In this document: positions 56,795 through 58,150 of the stretch, one piece after another
Layout of the letters: every line of letters begins with the position of its first letter
Numbering within the stretch: position 1 is the stretch's first letter
Assembly: GCA_000165345.1 (NCBI GenBank)
Contig: CM000430.1
Coordinates: 704,001-768,000 of the forward strand
DNA: 64,000 nt
Reading direction: 5' to 3'
Notes under the pieces: generated by a model
What the model saw: the letters and a program-made list of their open reading frames with translations, nothing else
Databases searched by the model: none
What the model was told of the DNA's origin: nothing
Program-made: the position numbers and the translations under genes

Positions 56795-58150
56795 ATGAGA
56801 AATACAAGTTCTCTATTACATAATACTAGCATTAATAATGATCCATATCATAATTCAGTAGTAATTGATATCAATCATACAAATATTGGAGAATATGTAC
56901 AAGAAAATAAAAAATATCCAAGTAATTCTTTTATTATATTAATCTTATTAATATCTACAATCATTATAATTAATCATGGATGGTATTATGGAATTCTATT
57001 ATTAATTATATCCATTTCTCCTGGAATATTAATAATATATCAATTTAAAAAATATATTATAGAAGATGAAATTAGTATTAAAACTATTACAGATTTATTC
57101 ACTTTTGGTGCAATCATATCTGTATCTACTACATTATTACTTGAAGGATTATTTTTTAATTATATATTTTATTTTAAAAATGATAATTATAATAATTATA
57201 TTGATCAATTTGGTTGTAATATTGGTTTTTCATTATATATATTAATTATTTTAATTAAATATATTATTTCTATTGGAATTATTGAAGAAGCATGTAAATT
57301 AATAGGATTATTAACTATTAAGCCTTATATTGAAGATATTAATTATAAAGAATCTTTTATTAGTCATTATTTAAAATCAAATTTTGGATATGTTATTGCT
57401 GGTATTTCTTCTTCACTTGGATTTGCAATTATTGAAAATATTGTATATTTATCCAATTCTATGGAAAGTATTATTATCATGATTCTTGTTGGTATTGCTA
57501 GAGGTATTATTTCTATTCCTTTTCATATATTTGCATCAGGATATACAAGTATATTATTTAGTAGACAAATTTTTATACAAAATGATTATTATTCTAATAA
57601 TAATAACAATAATAATAATAATAATAATTACTATTATTATTACCTTATTTATATACTTAAACAAATTATTATTAAATTTCTAACCTTACTACCAGCTGGA
57701 ATCTTACATGGAATTTATGATTCTAGTCTAATCTTACTAGTACTTATTAATCAAAATTATAATAAAGATGAAATACTTAGTTATAATTTAAATTCTACAT
57801 GTAATTTAAATACAAGAATTCTTAAATTATTTCTAACTTTATTTCCATTAAAAATTAATAAATTATTTGGAAGTTTTAAAAATCAAAATCTTATAGAAAA
57901 TTCATTCAATAATTGTTTTGGTACATTTTTTTATAATTTAATTACTATTGGATTCTTCATATTTGCTATATTATCTTATTTTATATGTTTTTTTCTATTT
58001 ATTTATAATTGGATTTATCTTGAAAAACAAAATTCTAATAGAAGAATAATAACAACAACCAGAACAATTAGTAGAAATAATATCAGTAATAGTATTAATA
58101 ATATCAATAATACTGAAATAAGAGAAATAGAACTTACAAGAGAACAATAA
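56795..58150 (+). CDS. Multi-pass membrane protein with PrsW / CPBP-type intramembrane metalloprotease motifs (putative).
   Basis: It has eight or more predicted TM helices. The ordered motifs are EExxK (IGIIEEACKLIG), FxxxE (GFAIIENIVY), an H-containing helix (IPFHIFASGY) and HxxxD (GILHGIYDSS). This is the signature order of PrsW-family proteases. A poly-N/Y insertion (NNNNNNNNNNNYYYYY) interrupts one loop. Confidence 0.45.
   Translation: MRNTSSLLHNTSINNDPYHNSVVIDINHTNIGEYVQENKKYPSNSFIILILLISTIIIINHGWYYGILLLIISISPGILIIYQFKKYIIEDEISIKTITDLFTFGAIISVSTTLLLEGLFFNYIFYFKNDNYNNYIDQFGCNIGFSLYILIILIKYIISIGIIEEACKLIGLLTIKPYIEDINYKESFISHYLKSNFGYVIAGISSSLGFAIIENIVYLSNSMESIIIMILVGIARGIISIPFHIFASGYTSILFSRQIFIQNDYYSNNNNNNNNNNNYYYYYLIYILKQIIIKFLTLLPAGILHGIYDSSLILLVLINQNYNKDEILSYNLNSTCNLNTRILKLFLTLFPLKINKLFGSFKNQNLIENSFNNCFGTFFYNLITIGFFIFAILSYFICFFLFIYNWIYLEKQNSNRRIITTTRTISRNNISNSINNINNTEIREIELTREQ

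What the first reader, a model, noticed from the sequence alone, without database searches (positions are those of the whole stretch)
56795..58150. Eukaryotic multi-pass membrane protein carrying the ordered PrsW/CPBP protease motif set
EExxK (EEACK), FxxxE (FAIIE) and HxxxD (HGIYD) occur in that order in successive TM helices. This is the defining arrangement of PrsW-type intramembrane metalloproteases (related to CPBP/Abi), a family that is overwhelmingly bacterial. The gene is interrupted by a poly-N/Y loop insertion typical of this genome, which argues against bacterial contamination. If it is real, this is a candidate intramembrane protease of unknown substrate in an apicomplexan.
Basis: inference. 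Interest (0 to 1): 0.55.

Follow-up and report, generated by a model that had tools for sequence, protein, structure and literature searches.

The report
Cryptosporidium PrsW-family membrane protease gene
This is a genuine parasite (Cryptosporidium) gene for an eight-helix membrane protein of the mostly bacterial PrsW protease family with all catalytic motifs intact; public records already name it as such, but nobody has tested its function or target.

Summary
The ORF at 56795..58150 (+) is real: 451 aa, one exon. It carries EEACK (aa 164), FAIIE (210) and HGIYD (305) in that order. It matches Pfam PF13367 (PrsW protease) at E=1.2e-13, 51.5 bits against a cut-off of 23.5. There is no CPBP match. 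A profile-profile comparison with bacterial-type PrsW gives 99.6% probability and aligns all motifs.

An AlphaFold model (pLDDT 77.9, pTM 0.79) shows eight long helices, with each motif inside one. The best solved-structure matches are TMEM147 and APH-1, known distant relatives of PrsW.

The window is a Cryptosporidium chromosome. Neighbours are a nucleoporin, a PHD-finger protein and a dihydrouridine synthase, and gene order is kept in two other species. dN/dS is 0.14 in the catalytic core. The nearest relatives outside the genus are gregarines, chromerids, squirmids and Neospora, not bacteria. This indicates old vertical inheritance, not contamination or recent transfer.

It is not new, however. 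NCBI and UniProt records already call the orthologues "Protease PrsW", and a 2015 paper notes the Pfam family in Cryptosporidium, Toxoplasma and Plasmodium. Substrate, location and activity remain unknown.

The parts
56795..58150 (+). Complete single-exon coding sequence (451 aa plus stop) of the PrsW-family membrane protein
   Evidence: ORF list. Co-linear from M1 with orthologues in 7 Cryptosporidium species. The exact product is on record in NCBI GCA_031892065.1 CP029781.1. PF13367 E=1.2e-13.
56795..56923 (+). N-terminal tail, aa 1-43, low-complexity and predicted disordered; inferred to be cytosolic
   Evidence: pLDDT below 50 for aa 1-34. Positive-inside count of K+R is 17 on the N-terminal side against 7 on the other side.
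56924..56977 (+). Helix 1 (aa 44-61), N-terminal to the segments aligned by the Pfam (from aa 101) and bacterial-profile (from aa 65) matches
   Evidence: Hydropathy peak 2.14; model helix 44-61. The Pfam match starts only at aa 101 and the hhalign match at aa 65.
56981..57043 (+). Helix 2 (aa 63-83) with conserved P76. It is followed by the charged loop KKYIIEDEIS, which aligns with the bacterial 'KD..EKEP' loop
   Evidence: Alignments; P76 is invariant in the genus.
57089..57163 (+). Helix 3 (aa 99-123) with conserved G105 and E117
   Evidence: G105 and E117 are at least 90% conserved across 31 family members; model helix 95-126.
57218..57316 (+). Helix 4 (aa 142-174) carrying PrsW motif 1, EExxK
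   Evidence: Model helix 141-174, pLDDT above 90.
57284..57298 (+). Motif 1, EEACK (E164, E165, K168): inferred catalytic glutamates
   Evidence: Invariant in all 31 aligned sequences. Aligned to the EE..K of bacterial-type PrsW. The motif is defined in PMC4602095.
57389..57457 (+). Helix 5 (aa 199-221) carrying motif 2
   Evidence: Model helix 196-221.
57422..57436 (+). Motif 2, FAIIE, within GFAIIENIVY (G209, F210, A211, E214, N215, Y218)
   Evidence: G209 and E214 invariant; F210, A211, N215 and Y218 at least 90% conserved. Aligned to the bacterial GFAT.ENI.Y.
57470..57562 (+).
   Evidence: R236 and P242 invariant, H244 at least 90% conserved. [quoted passage not shown] Aligned to the bacterial R....VP.H.
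57587..57643 (+). Poly-N/poly-Y tract (Y265-Y283; AAT/TAT repeats) in the loop between helices 6 and 7; length varies
   Evidence: Two N shorter in a C. parvum record, and much shorter or absent in other species. Low pLDDT of 58-64. DNA shown. Other family members also carry variable insertions at this point.
57653..57751 (+). Helix 7 (aa 287-319) carrying motif 4
   Evidence: Model helix 279-329, pLDDT 88-96.
57707..57721 (+). Motif 4, HGIYD (H305, D309)
   Evidence: Invariant in the genus and at least 90% conserved across the family sample. Aligned to the bacterial HG.YD. The motif is defined in PMC4602095.
57752..57928 (+). Long, poorly conserved loop (aa 320-378), not aligned in the profile comparison with bacterial-type PrsW; inferred lumenal or extracellular; has one N-x-S/T sequon at N333
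   Evidence: pLDDT 44-56. Variable and gapped among species. Sequon found. The side of the membrane is inferred from the positive-inside count.
57929..58009 (+). Helix 8 (aa 379-405), the most hydrophobic segment
   Evidence: Hydropathy peak 2.71; model helix 377-434.
58010..58147 (+). Basic C-terminal tail (aa 406-451; 7 K+R); inferred to be cytosolic

Best explanation
The ORF encodes the Cryptosporidium orthologue of a PrsW-family (Pfam PF13367, MEROPS M82) membrane-embedded protease. It is a stand-alone eight-helix protein. Its four family motifs are EExxK in helix 4, GFAxxEN in helix 5, Rx5PxH in helix 6 and HGxYD in helix 7. By analogy with bacterial PrsW and the related Rce1 structure, these are expected to come together inside the bilayer and form a glutamate/histidine active site that hydrolyses a peptide bond of a membrane-anchored substrate at or near the membrane. 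The gene is an old, vertically inherited component of apicomplexans and their relatives (gregarines, chromerids, squirmids, coccidia). It is not a contaminant and not a recent bacterial acquisition. Cryptosporidium has no RsiW/sigma-W pathway (background knowledge, not tested here), so the substrate must differ from the bacterial one. My best guess is site-1-type cleavage or shedding of one or more parasite membrane proteins in the endomembrane system or plasma membrane. What is shown: family membership, motif conservation, helical placement of the motifs, purifying selection, eukaryotic context and vertical descent. What is inferred: catalytic activity, metal or glutamate chemistry, topology (N and C termini cytosolic), location and substrate.
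For: Family membership:
- PF13367 E=1.2e-13, 51.5 bits against a cut-off of 23.5, aa 101-314. All 31 sampled relatives also hit PF13367.
- hhalign of the Cryptosporidium profile against a bacterial-type PrsW profile gives 99.6% probability, E=1.6e-23, with all four motifs in register.
- E164, E165, K168, G209, E214, R236 and P242 are invariant across 31 sequences. F210, N215, Y218, H244, H305 and D309 are at least 90% conserved.

Structure:
- AF2 model pLDDT 77.9, pTM 0.79, eight long helices, each motif inside a helix with pLDDT above 90.
- This matches the published description of PrsW as having eight TM helices and four motifs (PMC3482391) and EExxK/His/HxxxD in consecutive TM helices (PMC4602095).

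Selection: dN/dS is 0.14 in the catalytic core and 0.28-0.39 elsewhere.

Eukaryotic, vertical origin:
- The exact protein is on a 992-kb chromosome record.
- Neighbours are an Nsp1-like nucleoporin, a PHD-finger protein and Dus. Synteny holds in C. meleagridis and C. ubiquitum.
- An exhaustive profile search of 1.84 billion proteins gives only 34 hits. After Cryptosporidium, the best are Lankesteria, Vitrella, Platyproteum, Chromera, Gregarina, Porospora and Neospora, ahead of any bacterium.
- In the NJ tree, Cryptosporidium is monophyletic (98% support) with the branching order I expect for the species (gastric C. muris outermost; background knowledge), and groups at 75% with a 100%-supported clade of other myzozoans.
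Against: - No biochemical or genetic data exist for any apicomplexan member; nothing was found in four literature searches aimed at this (one more was too broad to use).
- No PrsW structure has been solved, so active-site geometry rests on a model whose coordinates I could not measure.
- The closest solved folds (TMEM147, APH-1) are non-catalytic scaffold subunits.
- No NCBIfam model matches.
- The score against the Pfam model is moderate, and the family is strongly diverged from bacterial members.
- The tree uses only six bacterial-type sequences and a distance method, so the deep origin is unresolved and the 75% node is only moderate.
- The topology is a positive-inside estimate, not a dedicated predictor.
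Confidence: 0.85

Rival explanations
1. The protein is a non-catalytic scaffold or chaperone subunit. Like APH-1 in gamma-secretase or TMEM147 in the Nicalin-NOMO translocon complex, it would use the PrsW-like helical bundle to hold partner membrane proteins rather than to cut them.
Against: All four PrsW catalytic motifs are intact and invariant or nearly so across about 30 diverged sequences. The core is under stronger constraint than the rest. APH-1 and TMEM147 have lost the EExxK glutamates (background knowledge; Pei et al. 2011, cited). No Pfam APH-1 or TMEM147 model hit appears at E<=1. TMEM147 and APH-1 may rank first simply because no true PrsW structure is in the PDB.
Confidence: 0.1
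2. It is a CPBP/Rce1-type (type II CAAX prenyl) protease that trims prenylated proteins, rather than a PrsW.
Against: There is no PF02517 match at E<=1, while PF13367 is significant. The motifs are EExxK/FxxxE/HxxxD, and no F...H or H...N motif occurs anywhere in the protein. The extra His-bearing helix typical of PrsW is present.
Confidence: 0.03
3. It is bacterial contamination of the assembly, or a recent horizontal transfer from bacteria into Cryptosporidium.
Against: The gene is embedded in a 992-kb chromosome record between eukaryotic nuclear genes. GC content is 18-23%, as in the surrounding DNA. Synteny is conserved in two other species, and orthologues occur across the genus, including C. 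muris and C. bovis. The nearest relatives are other alveolates, and bacteria only appear at E around 1e-4. The tree branching order is the one I expect for the species.
Confidence: 0.01
4. The motif pattern is a chance occurrence in a hydrophobic, low-complexity AT-rich protein that is not truly homologous to PrsW.
For: The ordered triple occurs in 13 of 20,000 shuffles, so a few proteins per proteome could show it by chance. The protein is 20% Ile and 12% Asn.
Against: HMM and profile-profile statistics are far beyond chance. The motifs are conserved in GC-rich relatives with quite different composition. A fourth motif not used in the search pattern is also present.
Confidence: 0.01

Closest known systems
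Bacterial PrsW (Bacillus subtilis YpdC/PrsW; Pfam PF13367, MEROPS M82), the site-1 protease of the anti-sigma factor RsiW
   Same: Significant Pfam match. 99.6% profile-profile match to bacterial-type members. The same four motifs (EExxK, GFAxxEN, RxxxxxPxH, HGxYD) occur in the same order inside consecutive helices. The overall eight-helix architecture matches that described for most PrsW proteins.
   Different: About twice the length of the short bacterial forms of roughly 220-240 aa. It has an N-terminal tail and first helix outside the segments aligned by the Pfam and bacterial-profile matches, a poly-N/Y loop between helices 6 and 7, a 59-aa loop before helix 8 and a basic C-tail. It is encoded in a eukaryotic nucleus with no anti-sigma/sigma-W partner (background knowledge), so the substrate and the signal must differ. 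It is very diverged: only 34 hits in 1.84 billion proteins, and bacteria score only about E=1e-4.
Annotated apicomplexan and chromerid 'Protease prsW family' proteins (C. tyzzeri, C. meleagridis, C. hominis, C. muris CMU_003830, Gregarina niphandrodes, Neospora caninum, Vitrella brassicaformis)
   Same: Orthologues or close homologues: 46-99% identity within the genus, the same motifs and one clade in the tree. They are already named PrsW in NCBI/UniProt.
   Different: Only loop lengths and tails differ. The window's allele has two more Asn than the C. parvum cluster representative. None has been characterised experimentally.
Malassezia PrsW-like proteins (PF13367), proposed to be horizontally acquired (PMC4634964)
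   Same: They are eukaryotic members of the same Pfam family with conserved EE, E, H and H residues. That paper already notes the family in Cryptosporidium, Toxoplasma, Neospora and Plasmodium.
   Different: There the distribution is patchy within one fungal genus and transfer from bacteria is proposed. Here the gene follows the alveolate species relationships.
APH-1 (gamma-secretase subunit) and TMEM147 (Nicalin-NOMO/translocon subunit)
Rce1 / CPBP (Abi) type II CAAX proteases (PF02517, MEROPS M79)
   Same: Same superfamily logic: a Glu-Glu motif and His motifs on neighbouring TM helices form an intramembrane active site.
   Different: The motif spacing and residues differ (EExxxR/FxxxH/HxxxN), and there is no Pfam match. 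PrsW has an additional conserved His helix.

Membership tests
PrsW protease family (Pfam PF13367 / MEROPS M82) | Score above the curated gathering threshold of the family HMM | tested here: met
   51.5 bits against a cut-off of 23.5, E=1.2e-13, profile positions 9-176 of 196. hhalign to bacterial-type members gives 99.6%, E=1.6e-23.
PrsW protease family (Pfam PF13367 / MEROPS M82) | Motif 1, EExxK, in a transmembrane helix | tested here: met
   E164-E165-A-C-K168 in model helix 141-174. Invariant in 31 sequences. The motif is defined in PMC4602095.
PrsW protease family (Pfam PF13367 / MEROPS M82) | Motif 2, FxxxE (GFAxxEN), in the next helix | tested here: met
   G209-F-A-I-I-E214-N215 in helix 196-221. 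G209 and E214 invariant. Aligned with bacterial GFAT.EN.
PrsW protease family (Pfam PF13367 / MEROPS M82) | Conserved histidine in the helix between motif 2 and HxxxD | tested here: met
   R236...P242-F-H244 in helix 226-269. Described for PrsW in PMC4602095.
PrsW protease family (Pfam PF13367 / MEROPS M82) | Motif HxxxD in the following helix | tested here: met
   H305-G-I-Y-D309 in helix 279-329.
PrsW protease family (Pfam PF13367 / MEROPS M82) | Polytopic membrane protein, typically eight TM helices | tested here: met
   Eight long hydrophobic helices by hydropathy and AF2. [quoted passage not shown]
PrsW protease family (Pfam PF13367 / MEROPS M82) | The four motifs converge on one intramembrane cavity | tested here: inconclusive
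   The model is confident in these helices, but its coordinates could not be read with the tools, so no distances were measured.
PrsW protease family (Pfam PF13367 / MEROPS M82) | Proteolytic activity dependent on the Glu-Glu and His residues | not testable with these tools
   This needs biochemistry or genetics. No paper on any apicomplexan member was found.
PrsW protease family (Pfam PF13367 / MEROPS M82) | Functional pairing with an anti-sigma factor (RsiW) and an ECF sigma factor, as in Bacillus | not tested
   Not expected in a eukaryotic nucleus. Nothing resembling one lies among the neighbours. The whole genome was not searched. This feature defines the Bacillus pathway, not the protein family.
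CPBP / Rce1 type II CAAX proteases (Pfam PF02517) | HMM match and motifs EExxxR, FxxxH, HxxxN | tested here: not met
   No PF02517 hit at E<=1. No F...H or H...N motif in the protein, and the Glu-Glu motif has K at +4, not R at +5.
APH-1 / TMEM147 scaffold subunits | Seven-helix fold similar to APH-1/TMEM147 | tested here: met
APH-1 / TMEM147 scaffold subunits | Sequence membership (Pfam APH-1 or TMEM147 models; detectable similarity to the solved chains) | tested here: not met
   Only PF13367 was found at E<=1. Sequence and profile searches of the PDB do not find either protein.

The most novel reading that the evidence does not exclude
The apicomplexan/chromerid PrsW clade is an active, anciently inherited intramembrane protease class that nobody has studied in these parasites. 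It would act as a site-1-type sheddase or maturase for parasite membrane proteins in the secretory pathway or at the surface. Humans have only the non-catalytic relatives APH-1 and TMEM147, so it would be a parasite-specific enzyme and a conceivable drug target in Cryptosporidium, which has few targets.
Probability: 0.35. Interest if true: 0.55.

Novelty: already known. Interest (0 to 1): 0.25.

Why it matters
The sequence-level claim adds nothing new. Database records already label this gene and its orthologues as PrsW-family proteases, and a 2015 paper mentions the family in Cryptosporidium, Toxoplasma and Plasmodium. What remains open, and mildly interesting, is biology. A protease family known from bacterial envelope-stress signalling and toxin release has been kept, with its catalytic residues intact and under purifying selection, across apicomplexans and their free-living relatives. 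It is even kept in Cryptosporidium, whose genome is strongly reduced and which lacks a plastid. That argues for a conserved function in the endomembrane system or at the cell surface, with an unknown eukaryotic substrate. Intramembrane proteases such as rhomboids and signal peptide peptidase matter for invasion and protein export in these parasites, so an additional uncharacterised class with no catalytic human counterpart would be worth a knockout or tagging experiment. It does not change current understanding.

Tried and rejected
- NCBIfam scan: no match.
- Sequence and profile searches of the PDB: only spurious transmembrane hits such as the acetylcholine receptor beta subunit.
- The AlphaFold-database libraries were not available. 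I therefore could not compare the model with predicted bacterial or Toxoplasma PrsW structures.
- The three word-indexed homology searches returned almost only Cryptosporidium sequences, probably because low-complexity AT-rich words swamp the candidate list. The exhaustive profile search was what reached other taxa.
The tree therefore has only six bacterial-type sequences, and the question of where eukaryotic PrsW came from is left open.
- Literature searches for any functional study (PrsW with Cryptosporidium, Toxoplasma or Plasmodium; 'prsW family protein'; M82 with apicomplexa) found none. One broad search was uninformative. Pei et al. 2011 (PMC3155266) is not held.
- CPBP/Rce1 identity, contamination or recent transfer, and chance motifs were all considered and rejected; see the rival explanations.
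Full report
**1. The observation.**

Each of the three motifs occurs once, and they occur in the stated order:
- EEACK at aa 164-168
- FAIIE at aa 210-214
- HGIYD at aa 305-309

In 20,000 composition-preserving shuffles of this protein, the ordered triple appeared 13 times. The pattern is therefore improbable for one protein. It is not rare enough to be conclusive when a whole proteome is read by eye, so the decision rests on profile statistics.

**2. Family assignment.**

Pfam gives a single hit, PF13367 (PrsW family intramembrane metalloprotease). 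The match has E=1.2e-13 and 51.5 bits against a gathering cut-off of 23.5, covering aa 101-314 and profile positions 9-176 of 196. No CPBP (PF02517), APH-1 or TMEM147 model appears even at E<=1. NCBIfam, which is built for prokaryotic annotation, has no match.

I compared a profile of eight Cryptosporidium orthologues with a profile of seven bacterial-type PrsW sequences. The result was 99.6% probability, E=1.6e-23 over 200 columns. The following pairs are in register:

| Cryptosporidium | Bacterial-type PrsW |
|---|---|
| EE..K | EE..K |
| GFAIIENIVY | GFAT.ENI.Y |
| R....IPFH | R....VP.H |
| HGIYD | HG.YD |

In a 31-sequence alignment spanning Cryptosporidium, other alveolates and a few bacterial-type members:
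- E164, E165, K168, G209, E214, R236 and P242 are invariant.
- G105, E117, F210, A211, N215, Y218, H244, H305 and D309 are at least 90% conserved.

All 31 members individually match PF13367.

The published descriptions fit. PrsW has EExxK, an extra conserved His in the next-but-one helix, and HxxxD (PMC4602095). The one it missed is R236...H244, which sits on the helix between FAIIE and HGIYD, so the three listed motifs are not on strictly successive helices.

**3. Structure and topology.**

An AlphaFold2 model built on the 31-sequence alignment has mean pLDDT 77.9 and pTM 0.79. It shows eight long helices:

| Helix | Residues | Motif carried |
|---|---|---|
| 1 | 44-61 | |
| 2 | 63-83 | |
| 3 | 95-126 | |
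| 4 | 141-174 | EExxK |
| 5 | 196-221 | FxxxE |
| 6 | 226-269 | R236, H244 |
| 7 | 279-329 | HxxxD |
| 8 | 377-434 | |

All of these coincide with hydropathy peaks. The low-confidence parts are the N-terminal 34 residues, the poly-N/Y loop, the 330-366 loop and the last ten residues.

K+R counts are 17 on the N-terminal side of the membrane and 7 on the other side. This favours both termini, and the poly-N/Y loop, being cytosolic. It is a simple estimate, not a dedicated prediction.

**4. Whose gene is it?**

The product is 99% identical to a C. parvum protein. It is 90%, 85%, 74%, 62% and 46% identical to orthologues in C. tyzzeri, C. meleagridis, chipmunk genotype I, C. ubiquitum and C. canis. 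The exact 451-aa sequence is on record on a 992,414-bp NCBI chromosome record, GCA_031892065.1 CP029781.1.

The neighbours are nuclear eukaryotic genes:
- a 2,452-aa PHD-finger protein
- an Nsp1-like nucleoporin, on the - strand
- a dihydrouridine synthase, convergent, with 59 bp between the two stop codons
- a 600-aa protein with no Pfam domain

The order "~850-aa gene (-), PrsW (+), Dus (-), ~590-aa gene (-)" is the same in C. meleagridis and C. ubiquitum. GC content is 18-23%, like the rest of this part of the window. Contamination is excluded.

The poly-N/Y tract is made of AAT/TAT repeats. It is two Asn shorter in the C. parvum cluster representative and much shorter or absent in other species. 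Other family members also have variable insertions at the same loop.

**5. Vertical or horizontal?**

An exhaustive profile search of 1.84 billion representative proteins gave only 34 hits at E<=1e-3. After Cryptosporidium (including C. bovis/xiaoi and C. muris), the ranking runs through:
- the gregarine Lankesteria
- Vitrella
- Platyproteum
- two apicomplexan-type transcriptome assemblies
- Chromera
- Gregarina
- Porospora
- Digyalum
- Neospora

A Bacillota PrsW appears only at E=5.9e-5.

I built a neighbour-joining tree on 243 well-aligned columns. It shows:
- Cryptosporidium is monophyletic (98% bootstrap), with the internal order C. muris, C. bovis, C. canis, C. ubiquitum, C. meleagridis/window. 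This is the order I expect for the species (gastric C. muris outermost; background knowledge).
- This clade is sister, at 75%, to a 100%-supported clade of the other myzozoans.
- The bacterial-type sequences lie outside.

The gene was therefore present at least in the common ancestor of apicomplexans and chromerids. The tree has only six bacterial-type sequences, because a broader bacterial sample could not be fetched. Whether the eukaryotic clade ultimately came from bacteria is not resolved.

**6. Is it functional?**

| Comparison with the window | dN/dS, whole gene | dN/dS, catalytic core (aa 95-257 and 287-319) | dN/dS, rest |
|---|---|---|---|
| C. meleagridis | 0.21 | 0.14 | 0.28 |
| C. 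ubiquitum | 0.28 | 0.14 | 0.39 |

These values show a gene under purifying selection, with the helices that carry the motifs most constrained.

**7. Mechanism.**

By homology, the most likely function is hydrolysis of a peptide bond of a membrane-anchored substrate. The active site would be formed inside the bilayer by the Glu-Glu pair (helix 4), E214/N215 (helix 5), H244 (helix 6) and H305/D309 (helix 7). This follows the proposals for B. subtilis PrsW and the related Rce1 structure.

In Bacillus, the substrate is the anti-sigma factor RsiW. Cryptosporidium has no such pathway (background knowledge), so the substrate is different and unknown. The protein has no fused sensor or toxin domain. 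It consists only of the eight-helix core plus low-complexity tails and loops.

Cryptosporidium and gregarines keep the gene although they lack a plastid (background knowledge). That points to the endomembrane system or the plasma membrane rather than an organelle of endosymbiotic origin; this is an inference. The main rival is a non-catalytic scaffold role like APH-1 or TMEM147. The fold matches suggest it, but the intact and constrained catalytic motifs argue against it, and I give it about 0.1.

**8. Novelty and verdict.**

- "Protease PrsW [Cryptosporidium tyzzeri]"
- "Protease prsW family protein [C. meleagridis]" and "[C. hominis]"
- "Protease PrsW [C. parvum]" (a truncated model)
- "Protease prsW family protein" for C. 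muris, Gregarina niphandrodes and Neospora
- "PrsW family intramembrane metalloprotease" for Vitrella

A 2015 paper on Malassezia notes that Pfam lists PF13367 in Toxoplasma, Neospora, Cryptosporidium and Plasmodium. No paper in the searchable library reports any experiment on an apicomplexan member.

I therefore rate the finding as already known at the annotation level. There is a modest residual interest, because the enzyme's role in these parasites is untested.

Noticed in passing
window 56560-56571 and 56759-56766 (intergenic, 29-235 bp upstream of the PrsW ATG): Three overlapping or adjacent copies of the palindrome TGCATGCA lie just upstream of the gene. The whole window has 7 copies against 0.43 expected by chance. 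To my knowledge this octamer is a well-known over-represented upstream element in Cryptosporidium and is bound by ApiAP2 factors, so it may be this gene's promoter element.
   Followed up: partly
window 58210-59769 (-): A convergent neighbour encodes a dihydrouridine synthase (PF01207, E=1.8e-41). Its match is split into three stretches by insertions, including a poly-Asn run. Only 59 bp separate its stop codon from that of the PrsW gene.
   Followed up: partly
window 52684-55287 (-): This 867-aa ORF has an Nsp1-like C-terminal region (PF05064, E=3.6e-12), so it is a likely FG-nucleoporin. A 289-aa ORF on the opposite strand (53615-54484) overlaps it and is probably spurious.
   Followed up: partly
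window 45091-52449 (+): A 2,452-aa ORF has PHD-like zinc fingers (PF13832, PF13771, PF00628) and is probably a chromatin reader. The orthologous gene lies in the same position in C. meleagridis.
   Followed up: no
window 56001-58000: This is the lowest GC content of the whole window (18.1%). The upstream intergenic region has long A-runs, (AAT)n and (ACAT)n-like microsatellites.
   Followed up: no
P0023, P0025, P0028 (hits): A tight, well-supported clade (100%) of GC-rich PrsW-family proteins has long Ser-rich tails and no source name. In the tree it sits with the bacterial-type sequences but looks eukaryotic, possibly fungal. Its origin was not identified.
   Followed up: no
P0035 (Peronosclerospora sorghi) and P0039 (unnamed): An oomycete PF13367 protein and a Cys-rich relative group together outside the myzozoan clade. 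This hints that PrsW-family genes are more widely scattered in the SAR group than in apicomplexans alone.
   Followed up: no
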